From: Thainema sp.
Lineage (GTDB): Bacteria; Cyanobacteriota; Cyanobacteriia; Phormidesmidales; Phormidesmidaceae
Reading direction: 5' to 3'
DNA: 46,717 nucleotides
Assembly (NCBI GenBank): GCA_052168235.1
Contig: JBQLZK010000038.1
Span: forward strand, 1-46,717
This document shows positions 21,001 through 30,000 of the stretch, piece after piece. A program made the position numbers. Each line of letters starts with the position of its first letter. Position 1 is the first letter of the stretch.

Positions 21001-24000
21001 GTGTAATGTTTACAAGGATCTACAGTTTCCAGATCAAGTGTATGAGCACATTTCAGAATATTATGAGCAGAAAGCAACCTAGTAAAAGCAGCTTGTTTGA
21101 TAGTTTGCCGTCATGAGAGAGAGGAGAGTTGCTGTAGGGGATACCTGGCTCTAGTTTTGAGGATATTCAAATTATCCACTTGTGCCAGTAAGCGGTCGAG
21201 TGTTGCAGTTTCGCTAGCGGACAACTGATCTTCTGTATTCTGAGCTAGTAGCGCGCCAAGTTGAGTTTGTTCAGCCGAAGCAAGCTGACTGTTGGCTAAT
21301 GCCTGTAATTCCTCCAAGCTTAAGCCTGTCAAAAGCTCCTCGTCAGATGTAGCAGGACTCACAAGACGGTGATGGGTTTCCAAATCAAGCAAAACCCCGA
21401 CTCGCTCTCCTTGTTGATTTGTTATGTACTGCACAGCTTCAGACATGACTCTCTCTATTCAAGTTAGATTAATTCTGACAGGGTTGAGTAAAAATCACTG
21501 TCACTTCATGGACTTTCTTCATGTCGATTATTTACACAGTTTTTGAAGTGTGGTCGAATTTAGCGTCCCGTGCCAAAATAATACAGATGAATAATTTAGT
21601 TATTGTAAGAGGCTAAGGTATGCGATATGCAGTTTGGAATAATAAAGGTGGAGTTGGTAAAACCTTTCTTTCATTTGTATTAAGCACAGAATTTTCTCAT
21701 GCCTTTCCCAGTAGAAATGTAATTTTAGTAGATATGTGTCCACAAGCCAATGTTTCAGAGATTATTCTCGGTGGCAATGGATCGGGTGGTGCTGAAAAGC
21801 TTAATCAGCTTATTGAAGATAGGAAAACAGTGGGAGGGTATTTTGATGAACGTATTAATTCACCACAAAAGCCTACTGAGACGGAAACAAACTATTTACT
21901 AAAAGTACAAGATTACAACTCTAATGTGCCTCCCAATTTGTGGTTGCTTGCTGGTGATCCAAGCCTCGAAATTCAAGCCCAAGTTATTAGCCAGATTAGT
22001 GCACAAACTTTGCCTGTAGAATCATGGAAGAATGTTCATAACTGGTTAAAAGATCTTGTATTAAGCTGTTCAGACAAATTAGGAGAAGATGTAACAGTTT
22101 TTATTGATTGCAATCCTAGTTTTTCAGCATATACGGAGCTTGCGCTTGCAGCAGCAGAACGAATTATTGTACCTTGTACAAGCGATGATTCTTCAGCTAG
22201 AGCTATCAATAATATCGGTGCACTAATATATGGAGTTGGTGTTGATTCCGCTTATAGTACCGTGAATTTTTCTGGTAAGGCAAAAGTATTTGATATGCCT
22301 TTGCCAGAGCTACATTGCGTTGTTTTAAATCGCTCAACTCAATACAATCAAAAAGCAAGTAAGGCTTTTGCTGCTATGTTTAAGGCTATTCAGGAAAGAG
22401 TGAATGATTTGGGGGAAAAAGAAACATTTGTTGCTTCAGGTGAAGAGGTTAGCTTTCAAGAGATCCCAGATAGTCATTCTGTTACGATTGTTTGTTCCCA
22501 TTTAGGAAAGCCTTTGTACAGTATTACACCAGGTAAATACGAGGTTTACGATACAAATCCTCAAGTGAATTCAGAGCCTATAGATCGATATAAAGAAGCA
22601 GTAGCTGCTTTGCTCTCAAAGATTTAAGTATATTCTAATCAAGAGTGCGCTAAGGCAAATATTAGGCACTCTTGATATATCTACTGATTTTTCCGTATAG
22701 GCAGTGGCGTGTCTAGAATCTCCAATAGCAGATCCAGACGAGAAGGCCGTGTCAATAGCGGCACAAGGTTGGGCAAGCTGTAGTAGTCTCCCGCGAAGGT
22801 AAACGTTTCTACAGGTGCTTGCTGCTGCTTTAGTTGGCCCTCCAGCCAGTTGTAGTAACTGCCCACACGGACAATGACCACATTTGGCATCACCGCCAAC
22901 TCCCGGCAGTAGGTCTTGTAAGCTTCACCGAAGTACGGAGCCGCATTTTCGCCCTCATCGGTCACGATGATGATTTGATCCACCACCTGACGCTTCTTGC
23001 GCATGGCTTCCAACGGAGCACCAATGCTAGTTCCACCGCCTGCCTTGATGTGCTGGAATGCCCGATCCCAGTCGGTCAGCTCCCTGCCCTGGGCATTGAT
23101 AGGATAAGGAATATTGTCGAAGGCATAGACAAACAGGTCAGCCTGAGTAATCCCAGAGATCAGCGCCGCTAGCTGCTTACCAACTGCGATCGCATTTTCC
23201 ATTGAGCCTGACTTGTCCACTAGCAGAGCTGTCGGACGGCTAATCACACCGCGCCGCTTCACCTGCTCATTTGTTACCTTCTCCAGCCGAGCTACAGTAT
23301 CCTCGTCAAGTTCTGCTGCATCGGCAGCAACCTGAGCCTTGAATGCAGCAACTCGCTTACCTTTGGCAGCCTGATCAAGCTTGGCATCAATCAGCGCCTT
23401 CACCTCTGGGTGATCCATTGCGCCTCTTGCCTTGAGTGACTTGAGGTTGTTGATCACCTCCTGCGGCGTCATGCTGTTGATCAGCGCGACTAGCACAGTT
23501 GGAGTCAACTGCTTGATAGCACCAATTGCGATCGCATAGGGCAACTTGAACTCGACGATTAGCCGCGCCTGCTCTGCCGCACTCTCAGCCTTGGCAAGCT
23601 GCTTCAGCACATCGGCCAGTGAACCAACCGGAGGCTGATTGCGGAACAGAATTGCATTGGCCCGCTCATTCGGCTTGATGTGCAGCGTCGCATACAGGTG
23701 CTTCATTGCCTTGCGACCCCGCAGCGCTGCCCGATCGAACAGAGCAGGATTGCCTTCCCGCGCCTTCAGATACCGCTGCACGGCAGTCCGAGCAGAACGA
23801 GGCACCTTATTGCGCTGCTGCTTCATGAAGTCCACCACCCGCGCCACTTGGTAAGGCGGGAACTCTTGCAGCATAACGAATCCAGCATCCCGGTGTTCTG
23901 TCAAATTGCTGGTTAGCAGATGTGCCAGAAACACTTCTTTGTGGTCACGCACATCACCATTGCGCTGATACCAAACCGCAAGATGCCCATAAAAAATCGG

Positions 24001-27000: not shown

Positions 27001-30000
27001 TAAGCGATGATCCAGATAGTAAGTCAGATAGGGTTGATCAGCGCATCAATGCCATTCTGGAACAGCGTTTGGAAGGCTTTGGCGCTCGCTTGTCACAGGT
27101 CGAACAACGCCTAAATGATGATGCAGCTCATCCAAGACAACACATCGGTGAAGGTCTGGGCAATATAGACAAGCATTTGGATCAGCATTTAGGTGATATA
27201 GATGAACACCTGGTCGCCTATCTCGATAATCCAAACGAAACAGAAAAGAAATCTCACCTGCCAAGACAGGCTGTAGAGATTCTAAAAGATCGCCAAGGCG
27301 AGCAGCGACCATCTCAACGCCAACGAGATAGTAACCGTTGATCTCAATCAGCTTGAGTGACTGATATTTGTGCGATCGCGCTTCTCTACATGAAATTTCT
27401 CGATAGAGCTGCGGGTGCGATCGCACCCTATCAAACCTTGTAGGGGCAAATGGCCATTTGCCCAATGCAGCACCCACAACACAGAATAATCTAGCTAAAT
27501 TTCCAACCTTTCCGGAATCGCCGTTGACGCTATGTAGTACAAGAATGTAGTATAAACTCATCCGTAGAGAAGCGGTAAAGAAAATGAAGCTAGCAGAAGC
27601 CCTGATTGTGCGGGCAGATTGTCAAAAGCGGATTGCTCAACTTCAGCAGCGCCTCATGCGGAGCGCCAAAGTGCAAGAAGGCGAGCAAGCGCCCGAAAAC
27701 CCACAGGAACTGCTGGCTGAGCTAGATGCAGCAATTGTTGAACTGACTCAACTCATCCAGCAAATTAATAAAACCAACGCTATTACCTCCTTGCAGGATC
27801 AGACTCTGTCTGAAGCCCTCGCCCAGCGGGACACCCTGCAAACGAAGCGCAATATTTACAGTCGCTTAATTGAAGCAGCAGCGATTCAGCCAACTCGCTA
27901 TAGTCAATCTGAAGTCCGCTTTGTCAGCACCGTCAACATCGCCGAACTTCAGCGCCAAGTGGATACACTGGCTCGCGACTATCGCGTTCTGGATTCTGCG
28001 ATTCAGGAGATCAACTGGCAAGTTGATTTACTCGATAATTAACGGAAACTGTATCGCCTCATACTAACCACATCCGGCTCTCCTCGCTCTATGGGCTACT
28101 GTTTATACATAAGTCTCCTAGACTTCGTTTCGACATTGAGATCCCCCCTAGCCCCCCTTAAAAAGGGGGGAATTGGCTCAAAGTTCCCCCTTTTTAAGGG
28201 GGATTTAGGGGGATCAGTCCGGGGTTTATAAAGACTATTCAGAAGTATATAAGCAGTAGCCCTATGGGCGAGGGGCTGGGGGTGAGAGCAACAGCAGGTA
28301 GCTCATTCATCACGAAGCGAACACAACCCGCCAACGGGGTTCAGTTGGAACTTACCAATCTAGAAAATTGGTCTTTGGTTGCACCGGGGCAGTGCGGTGG
28401 GTTCGATTCCCCTTACAACTGATGCCCAGCATTGTTACAGGCGTACTGTGCATTGTTATCGCGTACTACCACGTGTTGATCGAGATGAATGAGTGAGGGT
28501 GGGTTCGGGGTTTACGCTGTTGATCCGGTGAGCATCAACTCAAAATATTAGGTGGGGGCAGGTTGAGCCGTTAAATAATTGGTTTAGATCACAATTGATC
28601 AACGAAACCTGCTTCTACAGAAGGCACATCTTTCAATGGTTCAAGGAGAATCAACATGTCCTATCAACAACTCAAAATCTCTACACCAGCGCCTGTGTTC
28701 TCCTGGGCCAATCACGACCTGGGACACGCCGAAATCAGCATGGCGAAAAACGTTGCGTCCCTTCCCTTCGTGTTTAAGCATGTGGCGCTGATGCCCGATG
28801 TGCATCTGGGTAAAGGTGCGCTAGTTGGCTCCGTCATTGCTACCAAAGACGCCATTATTCCGGCAGCAGTCGGCGTAGACATCGGCTGCGGCATGTGCGC
28901 CATTCAAACGCCGTTTCAGGCCGACCAGCTTGACGGCAAGCTGAAGAAAATCCGCTCGGATATTGAAGCGGCGATTCCGACGGGCTTTGACCAGAATAAG
29001 GAGTCCGATAAGCAAGTCGATAACTGGCAGGGCTGGCAGCAGTTCAAAGAGCTGCATTCCGGCGTGCAGCACCTAGCGGGCAAAGCCCAAAAGCAAATGG
29101 GTTCGCTGGGTGGCGGCAACCACTTCATTGAGGTGTGTCTGGATACCAACGATCAGGTGTGGCTGATGCTGCATTCTGGTTCGCGCAATATCGGCAACAT
29201 GCTGGCTCAGAACCACATCAAGACGGCCAAAGAAGTGGCGAAGCTGGCCGAAATGAAGCTACCTGATCCCGATCTGTCCTACTTCGTAGCCGGAACGCCG
29301 GAGTTTGCCGCTTACTGGCGCGATTTGCAGTGGGCGCAGGACTATGCTCGGTTCAACCGTGAGGTGATGATGACTCGCTTCAAGCGAATTGTCGAAAAAC
29401 ACCTGGCAGGCGGCAAGCCAATCAAGCCACTGCTGTCGGTAAACTGCCACCACAACTACGCCGAGCAGGAAACTCACTTTGGCGAAGCGGTGTATGTCAC
29501 CCGCAAGGGAGCCGTGCGCGCTCAAACCAATGACTACGGGATTATTCCCGGTTCAATGGGCACCAAGTCCTACATTGTCAAGGGCAAGGGCCATGCCGAT
29601 AGCTACTGCTCATGCAGCCACGGTGCTGGCCGCACGATGTCCCGTAACCAAGCTAAGAAGCGCTTTTCACTGGATGATCTACTCCAGCAAACCGAAGGCG
29701 TGGAATGTCGTAAGGACAAGGGTGTCTTGGATGAAATTCCAGGTGCCTACAAGCCAATCGATGAGGTGATGGCTAGCCAGTCTGACCTGGTTGAGATCGT
29801 GGCAACCCTAAAGCAGGTCGTCTGCGTGAAAGGCTAGAACAGCTAGCTCTACTAAAGCTCGGATCTGCGATCGCACATCTCACTCCCCATATCCTGTACC
29901 GAAATAACCCGCATGGGTTCTAGCTTTGCTAGGTGCAAGATGTGAAACTTGCCACTGTGAGTGATTTGGGGAACATGTGCGATCGCGGATTATTGCTTTC

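What a model noticed while it worked through the whole genome (the two positions that open the first line are those of the whole stretch)
22681..29837. Divergent Ro60 orthologue with two tRNA-shaped Y-like RNAs in the RtcB / tRNA-array stress locus; the 'amber suppressor [...]
g03846 (C38:22681-24114, no Pfam/NCBIfam row) is a divergent Ro60/Rsr (TROVE+vWA) protein. Two paralogous RNAs beside it (about C38:24440-24600 and 26265-26405, minus strand), which ARAGORN calls tRNA-Gln(UUG, 94 nt) and tRNA-Pyl(CUA), are full cloverleaves set on a shared, conserved extended stem (8-10 bp + internal loop + 7-9 bp), i.e. Y-RNA-like tRNA mimics and not an amber suppressor. They sit in a remnant of the cyanobacterial long tRNA array (tRNA-Trp, -Ala, -His) together with a strongly conserved 243-aa protein of unknown function (g03847), a small protein with a weak RHH match (g03850), DUF6847 and RtcB. 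This ties a Ro60-Y RNA module to the translational-stress tRNA-array/RtcB regul [...]
Evidence so far: Protein: profile of 31 homologues hits PDB Ro60 (9nen E 7.7e-14; 1yvp 3.8e-10; Rsr 2nvo 9e-6; TROVE 9l5y 5.5e-11); AlphaFold model pLDDT 88 matches Ro60 chains first (Foldseek E 1.5e-12, TMq 0.71; Deinococcus Rsr 8e-12); single-sequence hits are weak (vWA_Ro60 E 0.03, phrog_850 'RNA-binding protein' 4.5e-7; calls 64, 65); NCBIfam none. RNAs: both fold into outer stem + second stem enclosing a cloverleaf; the two paralogues and their sister-species copies share the flanks almost letter for letter, with compensatory changes in outer stem, D and anticodon stems; both keep an A2:A71 mismatch and lack CCA; the 'anticodon' of the second RNA is CUA here but CCU in sister genome G001. 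In genome G137 [...]
(Added by a program. Inside this text positions count along the whole contig: contig position 1 is position 1 of the stretch shown here. "Call 12" and the like, gene names such as g00115 and contig names such as C1 are that model's own, and its searches are not shown. The text may have been shortened before it was handed on; [...] marks where a part breaks off. The agent that wrote the report below was given it as the finding of a first reader that could run no searches.)

Follow-up and report, generated by a model that had tools for sequence, protein, structure and literature searches.

The report
Ro60-like ring with tRNA/rRNA mimic RNAs
A cyanobacterial gene cluster pairs a Ro60-like RNA-binding ring protein with five small RNAs that share one conserved stem but display look-alikes of tRNA and of key ribosomal RNA sites, which points to a stress-linked decoy or quality-control particle that the papers I could search do not describe.

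Summary
The 477-aa protein at 22681-24114(-) has a Ro60/TROVE+vWA fold (profile to PDB Ro60 3.6e-17; Foldseek ranks 1-12 all Ro60/Rsr/TROVE). The two tRNA-shaped RNAs share a covarying extended stem.

That stem is a general scaffold, which I call a "clamp". The window holds five clamp RNAs on the minus strand:
- two tRNA-like RNAs;
- one in the leader of the Ro60-like gene;
- one carrying a shrunken, permuted 23S domain IV core;
- one carrying the sarcin-ricin loop plus the L11/GTPase-centre domain.

The clamp motif occurs in 40 of 401 cyanobacterial-phylum genomes. All 40 encode the protein, and none of the 355 genomes without a match to it has the motif. A 66-aa protein ending in Gly, a 275-aa protein and a ThiF-like E1 travel with the module, also in Vulcanimicrobiota and in a 595-kb phage.

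Best reading: a Ro60-like RNP whose Y-like RNAs present tRNA and rRNA mimics as baits or tethers. There are no expression or binding data. The RtcB link is specific to this locus.

The parts
22681..24114 (-). Ro60-like protein (TROVE ring + vWA with MIDAS residues D300, S302, S304, T362, D386), 477 aa
   Evidence: Profile to PDB Ro60 3.6e-17. Model pLDDT 90.7. Foldseek ranks 1-12 are all Ro60/Rsr/TROVE. Invariant MIDAS residues.
24239..24439 (-). Clamp RNA 'F' in the leader of the Ro60-like gene. This is the long form, with a 10-bp outer stem. Its 3' end lies about 125 nt before the ATG.
   Evidence: A clamp ends 25-260 nt (median 65) before the start codon in 73 of 77 loci.
24458..24604 (-). 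Clamp RNA 'A1': tRNA-like cargo (ARAGORN tRNA-Gln UUG, 94 nt) with a ~22-nt insertion in the T loop
   Evidence: The sister genome's copy lacks the insertion.
24609..25340 (-). 243-aa conserved protein of unknown fold (g03847)
   Evidence: 493 relatives, none with a Pfam domain. Found in 56 of 83 loci. Model pLDDT 67, and no fold match at E <= 0.001.
25423..25613 (-). Clamp RNA 'B': cargo is a shrunken 23S domain IV core, opened at the helix-69 loop
   Evidence: 22/22 identity to 23S 1896-1917 of a related genome. A Nostoc copy also matches 1776-1799, 1808-1822 and 1875-1899 in permuted order. 22 copies in 22 of 87 sources, 21 of them among the 80 Ro60-like loci.
25619..25819 (-). p66: 66-aa protein with an invariant C-terminal ...RPEA[VI][YF]G; candidate ubiquitin-like partner of the ThiF-like E1
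   Evidence: In 72 of 83 loci. Alignment A4. Present in Vulcanimicrobiota and in the phage. No Pfam or PDB hit.
26012..26161 (-). tRNA-His (Rfam only) and tRNA-Ala(UGC), remnant of the long tRNA array
26275..26405 (-). Clamp RNA 'A2': tRNA-like cargo with anticodon CUA (ARAGORN 'tRNA-Pyl')
26402..26474 (-). tRNA-Trp(CCA), first gene of the array remnant
26557..26604 (-). Three exact TTGTAGTAT repeats upstream of tRNA-Trp; candidate TrcR-type operator and promoter of the minus-strand unit
   Evidence: The motif overlaps the published TrcR site (PMC10272220).
20254..20466 (-). Clamp RNA 'C': cargo combines a sarcin-ricin-loop hairpin with the complete L11-binding/GTPase-centre domain of 23S rRNA
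   Evidence: Rfam LSU 1093-1148, 53.1 bits. 29/31 and 12/12 identities to 23S. 42 copies in 42 sources. 11 of 48 pairs show double changes.
20468..20485 (-). Two tandem TTGTAGTAT repeats abutting the 5' end of clamp RNA C
19685..20125 (-). NADAR-domain protein downstream of RNA C
   Evidence: PF08719, 1.7e-43. Found in only 7 of 83 loci.
18865..19692 (-). p275: conserved 275-aa protein with an invariant Cys255 in SSGICLSG
   Evidence: In 66 of 83 loci. 34% identical to the Vulcanimicrobiota protein, E 3e-46. No family or fold found.
18230..18868 (-). ThiF-like E1 adenylyltransferase, 212 aa
   Evidence: PF00899, 1.4e-25. In 60 of 83 loci.
26880..27341 (+). 153-aa protein with a weak N-terminal RHH/Arc-like match; possible TrcR-type repressor (inferred)
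   Evidence: RHH_1 E 0.043. phrog_6506 Arc-like repressor, 0.0027. Found in 0 of 83 other loci.
27534..29837 (+). Direct repeats ATGTAGTAC/ATGTAGTAT, then DUF6847 (DIP1984 family), then RtcB; a neighbour specific to this locus
   Evidence: DUF6847 in 2 and RtcB in 1 of 83 loci.

Best explanation
The locus encodes a Ro60-type ribonucleoprotein module whose RNA partners are a family of modular 'clamp' RNAs.

Each RNA has a constant platform. It consists of an outer stem of 7-10 bp that covaries, an internal loop with near-invariant CCYRAY on the 5' side and RACUU on the 3' side, an inner stem RAAGCY/RGCUUY, and then UACAUAC. I infer that this platform is the docking site of the Ro60-like ring, in the way the terminal stem of a Y RNA docks on Ro60.

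Each RNA also has a variable cargo that copies a piece of the translation machinery. The cargoes are:
- a tRNA body with a freely varying anticodon;
- the 23S domain IV junction around helices 67-71;
- the sarcin-ricin loop joined to the L11/GTPase-centre domain, which together form the factor-binding site of the 50S subunit.

A minimal clamp in the gene's own leader would let the protein feed back on its own synthesis. In this window the RNAs and the protein are driven from promoters carrying TrcR-type repeats, so the module should be switched on by translational stress together with the tRNA-array remnant and RtcB.

I commit to the cargoes acting as baits. They would attract proteins that normally attack or bind tRNA and the ribosome, such as anticodon nucleases, SRL-cutting ribotoxins and possibly factor GTPases. 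The Ro60-like ring would hold or hand over the bound or damaged RNA for decay or resealing. The 66-aa Gly-ended protein, the ThiF-like E1 and p275 form a conserved accessory arm of unknown target.

Shown: the protein fold, the RNA structures, the rRNA and tRNA likeness, the linkage, and the cross-phylum conservation.
Inferred: protein-RNA binding, regulation, and the bait role.
For: (1) The protein has a Ro60 fold and an intact MIDAS site.

(2) The clamp is a real RNA structure.
- Over 261 instances, outer-stem pairs 1-7 are formed in 255-261 cases.
- Pair types include UA, CG and GC, plus G-U in one orientation only, which argues for RNA on this strand.
- Compensatory changes occur in the D, anticodon and T stems (17 of 28 pairs).
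- They also occur within cargo C (11 of 48 pairs) and clamp F (7 of 15 pairs).

(3) The loop letters that my patterns left free are still constrained. Position +4 is a purine in 240 of 249 copies, +6 a pyrimidine in 244 of 249, and -5 a purine in 248 of 249.

(4) The cargo likeness to rRNA is specific.
- Cargo C matches the 23S GTPase-centre region at 29/31, E 3e-8, and the SRL 12-mer at 12/12. Rfam LSU scores 53.1 bits.
- Cargo B matches 23S at 22/22, E 9e-8, plus three further segments in permuted order.
- The mimic differs from real 23S at three GAC positions, and the mimic consensus keeps them. As I recall, these positions form a base triple that covaries in this way.

(5) Linkage to the protein is tight.
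- The 5' clamp pattern occurs in 40 of 401 phylum genomes. The reversed control pattern occurs in 0 of 401.
- All 40 genomes encode the protein. None of the 355 genomes without a protein match has the pattern.
- All 247 clamps in 80 loci are on the gene's strand, and 73 of 77 loci have a clamp in the leader.
- In this genome all five clamps lie within 6.2 kb.

(6) The order p66 - clamp RNAs - Ro60-like - p275 - ThiF is found in Vulcanimicrobiota, where the protein is 48% identical, and in a 595-kb phage, where it is 47% identical. In the phage the outer stems have different sequences but still pair.

(7) Exact TTGTAGTAT occurs five times in the window, always on the minus strand and only upstream of tRNA-Trp and of RNA C. 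Similar repeats precede DUF6847. The published TrcR site contains this word, and the tRNA array and rtcB are induced by translation inhibitors (PMC10272220 and PMC8421152, passages read).

(8) The concept has precedent. Ro/TROVE with a tRNA-like partner is described as an RNA-repair platform (PMC7824862 passage). YrlA Y RNAs mimic tRNA (PMC4201824).
Against: - I have no expression, end-mapping or binding data of any kind.
- No Pfam TROVE row was returned at E <= 0.1 for the single sequence.
- No Rfam Y RNA family matched.
- The published Rsr motif GNCGAAN0-1G is not strictly present by eye.
- My test of a Y-like bulged helix found no covariation. Pairing +4 with -1 gave 225 of 249 pairable cases, but when -1 is C the partner is A in 15 cases and G in only 8.
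- RNA C alone does not fold better than shuffles (z -1.28, 22 of 200 shuffles as good).
- Two or more strict TrcR-type repeats precede RNA C in only 2 of 42 copies. One group of genomes has unrelated upstream sequence.
- RtcB lies within 5 kb of the gene in 1 of 83 loci.
- Six of 46 protein-positive genomes lack the strict pattern. Three of those six have only fragments or an interrupted gene.
- rRNA-mimic motifs were not found in the four non-cyanobacterial loci.
- The related genomes are not independent, so the co-occurrence counts overstate the number of independent events.
- The bait role has no direct support.
Confidence: 0.5

Rival explanations
1. The clamps are processing or stability cassettes. 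They would be leader-trailer helices that direct excision or protect the ends of small RNAs cut from a long operon transcript, as the processing stalks of rRNA operons do. The Ro60-like protein would be a neighbour that acts on other RNAs.
For: The clamps bracket every cargo, and several lie inside what looks like one transcription unit, with tRNAs directly abutting them (tRNA-Trp ends 2 nt before clamp A2). Leader-trailer pairing around stable RNAs is established knowledge. A leader clamp could simply stabilise the mRNA.
Against: The clamp occurs only in genomes with the protein (40 of 40 against 0 of 355). The loop letters stay fixed while the stems covary, also across phyla, which fits recognition by a dedicated protein. 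The stems are too short to be classical RNase III sites (7-10 bp plus 5-7 bp). The two readings can coexist.
Confidence: 0.2
2. The tRNA-like clamp RNAs are genuine tRNAs, including an amber suppressor. RNase P and RNase Z would release them and they would be used in translation under stress, like the other tRNAs of long arrays.
For: Rfam tRNA scores 50.6 bits for RNA2. In 53 of the 73 copies the loop has the common tRNA pattern C-U-N-N-N-R-A. In Anabaena, 23 of 26 array tRNAs were detected and aminoacylated (PMC8421152 passage).
Against: There are 40 distinct anticodon loops among 73 copies, and some loops have 4, 8 or 9 nt. Orthologous positions carry CUA, CCU and CAU. The A2:A71 mismatch is conserved and no CCA is encoded. 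The 5' leader is base-paired right up to position 1. RNA1 has a ~22-nt insertion in its T loop. The same platform also carries rRNA pieces and bare hairpins.
Confidence: 0.07
3. The conserved p66 / ThiF-like E1 / p275 arm acts on the RNAs themselves. It could be a sulfur-carrier system that thiolates the tRNA-like or rRNA-like cargo, as TtuB/TtuC do for tRNA in Thermus (recalled). Alternatively, the Gly-ended p66 could be joined to an RNA or to the Ro60-like protein. In this reading the ring is a platform for an RNA-modification or tagging reaction, not for decoys.
For: p66, p275 and ThiF occur in 72, 66 and 60 of 83 loci, on the same strand. They are also present in Vulcanimicrobiota, there with a Prok-JAB gene (1.1e-13), and in the phage. 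p66 is 66 aa long and its terminal Gly is invariant. One source names a member 'TGS domain-containing'. p275 has an invariant Cys.
Against: p66 has no Pfam or PDB sequence match, and its fold was not determined. No PP-loop or other thiolase was recognised. p275 has no recognisable family. No JAB ORF was found next to ThiF in the window.
Confidence: 0.15
4. The clamps are DNA-level repeats, namely inverted-repeat ends of a small mobile element that happened to capture tRNA and rRNA fragments.
For: The outer stems are inverted repeats. The module sits beside a ParA-like gene here, on plasmids in two records and in a phage. The protein is 80-96% identical across many cyanobacterial genera, which suggests horizontal spread.
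Against: G-U pairs are kept in one orientation only. All 247 copies share the gene's strand and keep fixed positions in the operon. The cargoes are conserved and covary. There are no copies elsewhere in the 7.5-Mb genome.
Confidence: 0.03

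Closest known systems
Ro60/Rsr with Y RNAs, especially bacterial YrlA and the Salmonella rsr-yrlBA-rtcBA operon
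   Same: A TROVE+vWA ring protein is encoded next to modular non-coding RNAs. One module is a terminal stem and the other mimics tRNA. The system is linked to RNA repair and stress (PMC4201824 and PMC7790460 passages).
   Different: Here the terminal stem prolongs the acceptor end instead of replacing the anticodon stem. The platform has a different consensus and matches no Rfam model. One platform carries several cargo types, including rRNA centres. A copy sits in the protein's own leader. A Gly-ended 66-aa protein, a ThiF-like E1 and p275 are constant partners. RtcB is near in only 1 of 83 loci.
Cyanobacterial long tRNA arrays and the TrcR translational-stress regulon (PMC8421152, PMC10272220)
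   Same: The same kind of direct repeats lies at the promoters. A tRNA-array remnant, rtcB and an RHH protein are in the window. In two other genomes the clamp RNAs sit inside or at the end of full arrays.
   Different: A search of the text of those papers found no mention of a vWA or Ro60 protein (figures and supplements not seen). They treat the array members as tRNAs. The clamp RNAs, the rRNA mimics and the E1 arm are not in the passages I read.
rRNA mimicry in ribosomal-protein mRNA leaders (autoregulation by L1, L10-L12 and others; recalled, not checked here)
   Same: A short RNA copies an rRNA protein-binding site. The clamp in the Ro60-like leader suggests the same feedback logic.
   Different: RNA B and RNA C are set between genes in their own clamp rather than in a ribosomal-protein leader; RNA C has its own promoter-like repeats. 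They copy whole functional centres (SRL+GAC, domain IV junction) and share a platform with tRNA mimics.
Prokaryotic ubiquitin-like / E1 / JAB operons and Ubl sulfur carriers (ThiS, MoaD, TtuB; recalled)
   Same: A small Gly-ended protein occurs with a ThiF-family E1, and in Vulcanimicrobiota with a JAB peptidase too.
   Different: No E2 or thiolase is recognisable. The system is tied to a Ro60-like protein and structured RNAs, a link that my searches of the held papers did not find described. An Asgard-virus preprint lists Ro60 and ThiF genes in one genome without connecting them.

Membership tests
Ro60/Rsr (TROVE + vWA) | N-terminal alpha-helical TROVE ring | tested here: met
   The profile alignment to TROVE chain 9l5y covers query 23-393 (4.8e-15). 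Foldseek aligns about 500 columns to Ro60/Rsr (TMq 0.59-0.67). However, no Pfam TROVE row was returned at E <= 0.1 for the single sequence.
Ro60/Rsr (TROVE + vWA) | C-terminal vWA domain with MIDAS residues | tested here: met
   D300, S302, S304, T362 and D386 are invariant in 48 sequences. vWA rows appear in Pfam below cut-off.
Ro60/Rsr (TROVE + vWA) | Binds Y RNA on the outer surface and misfolded RNA in the hole | not testable with these tools
   Needs biochemistry or a structure.
YrlA / Y RNA | Encoded next to the Ro60 gene | tested here: met
   247 of 247 clamps are on the gene's strand within 5 kb. Co-occurrence is 40 of 40.
YrlA / Y RNA | The stem formed by the 5' and 3' ends takes the place of the anticodon stem of the tRNA-like domain | tested here: not met
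   The terminal stems continue the acceptor stem, and a full anticodon arm is present.
YrlA / Y RNA | Rsr motif GNCGAAN0-1G (or GGUCCGA) near the 5' end (PMC4201824) | tested here: inconclusive
   Read by eye only. Many copies have CCGAAAAAG or GAUCGAAAAAG, and others do not. No covariation supports a Y-like bulged helix.
YrlA / Y RNA | Match to a curated Rfam Y RNA model | tested here: not met
   No Y RNA family appears at gathering score in the window, nor among the 28 matches at E <= 10 in 24100-26800.
Canonical tRNA | Cloverleaf with D, anticodon and T arms | tested here: met
   Rfam tRNA 50.6 bits for RNA2. Covariation occurs in all three arms. RNA1 fails the gathering score because of its T-loop insertion.
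Canonical tRNA | Anticodon conserved among orthologues | tested here: not met
   40 distinct loops in 73 copies. Corresponding positions carry CUA, CCU or CAU.
23S rRNA gene fragment / pseudogene | Colinear stretch of rRNA decaying without constraint | tested here: not met
   Only 12-31-nt blocks match, and they are joined in non-native order. 42 and 22 copies are conserved across genera, with compensatory changes.
TrcR / long-array translational-stress regulon | Tandem direct repeats over the -10 box and the start site | tested here: inconclusive
   In the window, exact repeats lie at 20468-20485 and 26557-26604, and near-exact ones at 27534-27553. Elsewhere only 2 of 42 RNA C copies have two or more strict repeats. 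No start sites are mapped.
Prokaryotic Ubl-E1(-JAB) system | ThiF-family E1 | tested here: met
   PF00899 at 1.4e-25 in the window and 1.3e-27 in L121.
Prokaryotic Ubl-E1(-JAB) system | Beta-grasp Ubl ending in Gly | tested here: inconclusive
   The terminal Gly is invariant in 27 sequences.
Prokaryotic Ubl-E1(-JAB) system | JAB/JAMM peptidase | tested here: inconclusive
   Prok-JAB at 1.1e-13 in L121. No ORF of 40 aa or more was found on the ThiF gene's strand beside it in the window.

The most novel reading that the evidence does not exclude
Bacteria and huge phages carry a portable 'translation-apparatus decoy particle'. A Ro60-like ring, helped by a ubiquitin-like protein and its E1, displays miniature copies of tRNA, of the ribosome's factor-binding site (sarcin-ricin loop plus GTPase centre) and of the domain IV bridge region, all on one standard RNA socket. 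These copies would lure, sense or neutralise toxins and factors that target tRNA and rRNA. An even bolder version is that the Gly-ended protein is loaded by the E1 onto the tRNA-like RNA.
Probability: 0.3. Interest if true: 0.95.

Novelty: new variant of a known kind. Interest (0 to 1): 0.87.

Why it matters
Ro60 and its Y RNAs are conserved from bacteria to humans, yet what the variable half of a Y RNA is for remains largely open. Here a single docking stem is reused for at least four kinds of cargo. Two of them are natural miniatures of the best-known functional centres of the large ribosomal subunit.

If the RNAs are made and bound as predicted, three things follow:
- There would be a clear, testable rule for how Ro60-type proteins are aimed at their targets.
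- There would be a natural 'ribosome in pieces' with which to study binding of factors, L11, thiopeptides and ribotoxins.
- There would be a new arm of the cyanobacterial translational-stress response. The same module in another phylum and in a huge phage would tie that arm to conflicts over the translation machinery.

It would also connect Ro60 biology to ubiquitin-like/E1 chemistry for the first time. Finally, it corrects genome annotation: the 'tRNA-Pyl/amber suppressor' and 'LSU rRNA fragment' calls in these genomes are parts of one RNA family.

Tried and rejected
- Expression: the look-up of sequencing runs on 20200-26500 listed no RNA holder, so read laying could not be used.
The queue was full each time, so the job never ran and there is no result.
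- g03847: the model has pLDDT 67, Foldseek against the PDB gave nothing at E <= 0.001, and Pfam, NCBIfam and PHROGs gave nothing.
- p66: Pfam gave nothing at E <= 10 for seven members. The profile against the PDB gave only a chance-level L23 row (0.33). The Atlas returned only unnamed clusters, one of them mostly from phages.
- p275: Pfam, the PDB profile and the Atlas gave nothing usable.
The distant relative P0125 gave no genomic locus.
- I considered the clamp loop as a hammerhead or a kink-turn by eye and rejected both. The core letters are not conserved, and no Rfam ribozyme model matched.
- The Y-like bulged-helix reading has no covariation.
- rRNA-mimic words are absent from L121-L124.
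- Earlier findings of this scan: nothing by place, by sequence or by words.
- Literature: six searches found no paper on such RNAs. Burroughs & Aravind 2016 is not held and is cited from memory only. It and the supplements of PMC8421152 and PMC10272220, which I did not open, may already list the vWA gene among array neighbours.

Full report
**What is at the given coordinates**

The ORF 22681-24114(-) encodes 477 aa. As a single sequence it is nearly silent. Pfam gives only sub-threshold vWA rows (VWA_CoxE 2.6e-4, vWA_Ro60 0.031). NCBIfam gives nothing. PHROGs gives an 'RNA-binding protein' family at 4.5e-7. The PDB gives two TROVE chains at E 0.018.

The family is nevertheless large. There are 3096 proteins at E <= 0.001 among the 8000 candidates scored, and the best 120 are all 80-100% identical, across many cyanobacterial genera. 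There are 1020 representatives at 50% clustering.

I built my own profile from 48 diverse representatives. It hits human Ro60 9nen at 3.6e-17, a phage TROVE protein 9l5y at 4.8e-15 over query residues 23-393, Xenopus Ro60 1yvp at 5e-14, and Deinococcus Rsr 2nvo at 7.7e-8. The AlphaFold model has pLDDT 90.7 and pTM 0.77. Its twelve best Foldseek matches are all Ro60, Rsr or TROVE structures (E 1.4e-11 to 6.8e-10, TMq 0.59-0.67), and vWA-only chains follow at 2e-5. The MIDAS residues D300, S302, S304, T362 and D386 are invariant. The protein is therefore a divergent Ro60-type protein. I call it Ro60L.

**The two RNAs**

ARAGORN calls tRNA-Gln(UUG), 94 nt, at 24485-24578(-) and tRNA-Pyl(CUA) at 26305-26377(-). 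It also calls tRNA-Ala and tRNA-Trp. Rfam adds a tRNA with a GUG anticodon at 26012-26085.

Both odd RNAs are embedded in the same flanks. These are an outer stem (CACUUCGUGC/GCACGAAGUG in RNA1, GUCGUGC/GCACGAC in RNA2), an internal loop, an inner stem AAAAGCU/AGCUUUU, and a 5-nt bulge (NCAAC) where a discriminator base and CCA would lie. The acceptor stem is UACAUAC/GUAUGAA, with A opposite A at the second pair.

RNA2 folds in exactly this way as its minimum-free-energy structure (z -2.62). RNA1 carries about 22 extra nt in its T loop that the sister genome's copy lacks. That is why ARAGORN reports 94 nt and why Rfam gives only a partial match.

**The stem is a general socket**

I searched the 80 Ro60L loci fetched from public genomes and four tRNA-array loci with the flank motifs. 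This returned many more elements than the two tRNA-like RNAs. In all, 261 instances in 87 sources share this platform:
- 5' side: N7-GYGC | CCYRAY n3-5 | RAAGCY-UACAUAC ... cargo
- 3' side: cargo ... RGCUUY | n2-3 RACUU | GCRC-N7

I call this platform the clamp.

- Outer-stem pairs 1-7 are formed in 255-261 of the 261 instances.
- The pair types are UA, CG and GC, plus G-U in one orientation only. This argues for an RNA on this strand and not for a DNA palindrome.
- Loop positions that my patterns left free are still constrained. Position +4 is a purine in 240 of 249 copies, +6 a pyrimidine in 244 of 249, and -5 a purine in 248 of 249.

The window holds five clamps, all on the minus strand:

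| Clamp | Coordinates (motif to motif) | Cargo |
|---|---|---|
| C | 20262-20458 | SRL + GTPase-centre mimic |
| F | 24247-24431 | leader of Ro60L |
| A1 | 24463-24598 | tRNA-like (RNA1) |
| B | 25431-25605 | 23S domain IV mimic |
| A2 | 26283-26397 | tRNA-like (RNA2) |

In the whole 7.5-Mb genome there are 22 motif pairs at a suitable distance. Only these five have all seven outer pairs.

**The cargoes**

(i) tRNA-like. In an alignment of 73 copies, 17 of 28 predicted pairs show compensatory changes in the outer stem and in the D, anticodon and T stems. The anticodon loop is free to vary. There are 40 different loops among the 73 copies. Most keep U at the second position and a purine after the triplet, but a few loops have 4, 8 or 9 nt. 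At corresponding positions the triplet is CUA here, CCU in the sister genome and CAU in another genome's array. This rules out a conserved decoding role, and with it a dedicated amber suppressor.

(ii) RNA C. Rfam had already flagged 20312-20367 as LSU rRNA positions 1093-1148 (53.1 bits). I compared the cargo with the rrn operon of a related complete genome.
- It matches 29 of 31 nt in the L11-binding/GTPase-centre region.
- It also matches 12 of 12 nt of the sarcin-ricin loop word AGUACGAGAGGA.
- The consensus of 42 copies folds with the SRL word in a hairpin whose closing stem covaries (UA 19, UG 15, GC 7).
- The GTPase-centre part folds as a three-way domain, and 11 of 48 pairs show double changes.
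- The window copy differs from real 23S at three positions of that domain: C to U in GAAGCAGCC, C to U in GAGUGCGUAA, and G to A just after. The 42-copy consensus keeps them.
- As I recall, but did not check with any call, these are the three members of a base triple (E. coli 1072/1092/1099) known to covary in just this way. If that is right, the mimic keeps the tertiary fold.

(iii) RNA B. It matches 22 of 22 nt around the 3' strand of helix 69 and helix 70. A Nostoc copy also matches 23S segments 1776-1799, 1808-1822 and 1875-1899. In the RNA these come after the 1895-1921 block. Long helices are replaced by short capped hairpins, and the helix-69 loop is opened and joined to the clamp. It is a permuted miniature of the domain IV junction. 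The helix names are from my recollection of the E. coli map.

(iv) Clamp F. In Nostocales it is a 67-nt minimal clamp with a small hairpin. In this window and its relatives it is longer.

(v) Other cargoes. Some copies carry a T arm plus other hairpins.

**Linkage to the protein**

- In the 80 loci, all 247 clamps lie on the strand of Ro60L.
- In 73 of the 77 loci with at least 300 nt of upstream sequence, a clamp ends 25-260 nt (median 65) before the start codon.
- The 5' half of the clamp, written as a 25-nt IUPAC pattern, occurs in 40 of 401 genomes sampled across the phylum. The same pattern read backwards occurs in none.
- Ro60L (E <= 1e-30) is found in 46 of the same 401 genomes.
- All 40 pattern-positive genomes have the protein. 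None of the 355 genomes without a protein match has the pattern.
- Of the six protein-positive genomes without the strict pattern, three hold only fragments or a gene with a stop.
- These genomes are related to one another, so the counts are not independent events. They do span 19-21 genera.

**Conserved protein partners and range**

I ran tblastn of the window's proteins against 83 Ro60L loci. The number of loci with each protein, always on the same strand, was:

| Protein | Loci (of 83) |
|---|---|
| p66 (25619-25819) | 72 |
| p275 (18865-19692) | 66 |
| ThiF-like E1 (18230-18868) | 60 |
| g03847 | 56 |
| NADAR | 7 |
| DUF6847 | 2 |
| RtcB | 1 |
| ParA-like, p111, p127, RHH protein | 0 |

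p66 ends in an invariant ...RPEA[VI][YF]G. The E1 matches PF00899 at 1.4e-25. p275 has an invariant Cys but no recognisable family.

In three Vulcanimicrobiota genomes, where Ro60L is 48% identical, the order is p66, tRNA-like clamp, leader clamp, Ro60L, p275 homologue (34% identity, E 3e-46), ThiF, Prok-JAB. The clamp consensus there is the same.

A 595-kb uncultured phage has p66 (32%), three clamp RNAs, Ro60L (47%), p275 (34%) and ThiF (50%) in the same order. Its clamps have different outer-stem sequences that still pair, similar loops, and UUACAAAC in place of UUACAUAC. I found no rRNA-mimic words in these four loci. Two plasmid records also carry the gene.

**Regulation in this window**

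Exact TTGTAGTAT occurs five times, all on the minus strand. Two are tandem copies that end right at the 5' end of RNA C. Three lie upstream of tRNA-Trp. With up to one mismatch there are 17 matches, against 7.8 expected. ATGTAGTAC and ATGTAGTAT precede DUF6847.

The published TrcR operator contains this word. The array and rtcB are de-repressed by translation inhibitors in Anabaena (passages of PMC10272220 and PMC8421152). I infer two stress-controlled units on the minus strand:
- tRNA-Trp through Ro60L;
- RNA C through the E1.

This is not general for RNA C. Only 2 of 42 copies have two or more strict repeats, several Nostocales copies have one good and one degenerate repeat, and another group has unrelated sequence.

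**How it most likely works**

Shown: the fold of the protein, the RNA structures, the likeness of the cargoes to tRNA and 23S centres, the exclusive linkage, and the conservation across phyla.

Inferred:
- The clamp is the docking site of Ro60L, by analogy with the terminal stem of Y RNAs and from the fixed loop letters.
- The leader clamp gives feedback on the protein's own synthesis.
- The cargoes act as baits or tethers for proteins that bind or cut tRNA and the 50S factor site.
- The ring passes bound or damaged RNA on to decay or repair.

The authors of PMC8421152 already suggested that array tRNAs may act as sponges for toxin RNases, and phages are thought to use tRNA sets against tRNA-cutting defences (PMC7824862). 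rRNA miniatures on the same socket fit that idea.

My odds are:
- Ro60 fold: 0.95.
- Clamp RNAs are real: 0.9.
- They are bound by Ro60L: 0.65.
- The cargoes act as baits: 0.35.

**What argues against this**

- There are no expression or binding data.
- No Rfam Y RNA family matches.
- The YrlA topology is not met.
- The published Rsr motif is not clearly present, and a Y-like bulged helix is not supported by covariation.
- RNA C alone is not more stable than shuffles (z -1.28).
- The RtcB neighbourhood is specific to this locus.
- The role of the E1 arm is unknown.

**Comparison and novelty**

The closest known system is Ro60/Rsr with YrlA-type Y RNAs. It shares the logic of a ring protein with a modular RNA, one half of which mimics tRNA. 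This module differs from it in five ways:
- the topology;
- the platform sequence;
- the reuse of one platform for several cargoes, including two ribosomal centres;
- the copy of the platform in the protein's own leader;
- the constant Ubl-like/E1 partners.

Six full-text searches found no description of such RNAs. One key review (Burroughs and Aravind 2016) and the supplements of the two array papers could not be or were not read, and they may mention the vWA gene as a neighbour.

I file it as a new variant of a known kind. The rRNA-mimic cargoes are the part that may prove categorically new.

Noticed in passing
window 24494-24534 (-); L031 5231-5330 and 5867-5962; L037 4049-4144; L049 4271-4408; L032 7764-7899: The same ~22-nt insert (a small UUCG- or UUUG-capped hairpin plus AAGCAAGCUA) sits inside the T loop of RNA1, of other clamp RNAs, and apparently of the over-long array tRNAs of two other genomes (matching stretches lie at the tRNA-Arg, -Met and -Asn genes of 96-100 nt; exact placement not checked). 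The sister genome's RNA1 lacks it. It may be a tiny mobile or intron-like T-loop element.
   Followed up: partly
window 28380-28425 (+), in the DUF6847-RtcB spacer: There is a T-arm-like stretch (GGUGGGUUCGAUUCCCC) without a clamp in the long rtcB leader. It may be a tRNA remnant or another tRNA-like signal.
   Followed up: no
window 28140-28215 (+); L061 4710-4939: A G/C-rich palindromic repeat (GATCCCCC...GGGGGATC) looks like a cyanobacterial miniature repeat. A similar repeat is inserted into the leader clamp of one Nostoc locus.
   Followed up: no
window 26200-26250: A perfect ~48-nt A/T-rich palindrome lies between clamp A2 and tRNA-Ala. Rfam scored it as microRNA-like on both strands. 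It may be a terminator or a repeat inside the presumed operon.
   Followed up: no
L124 (phage record LR756511.1) 3140-3270, 3385-3545, 5790-5925: A 595-kb uncultured phage carries three clamp RNAs with a variant socket beside p66, Ro60-like, p275 and ThiF homologues. ARAGORN reads one of them with a four-letter anticodon.
   Followed up: partly
window 19685-20125 (-): A NADAR-domain protein lies between RNA C and p275. It occurs in only 7 of 83 loci. Its link to the module is unclear.
   Followed up: partly
window 21620-22627 (+) and 15668-17701 (+): A ParA-like ATPase lies next to the Ro60-like gene and an RTX-repeat protein lies beyond the E1. With the two plasmid-borne copies and the very high protein identity across orders, this suggests that the module moves horizontally.
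   Followed up: partly
G000 genome as a whole: The assembly holds no full 23S rRNA gene. The only LSU match in 7.5 Mb is the fragment inside clamp RNA C, so automatic annotation may report this mimic as a partial rRNA.
   Followed up: yes
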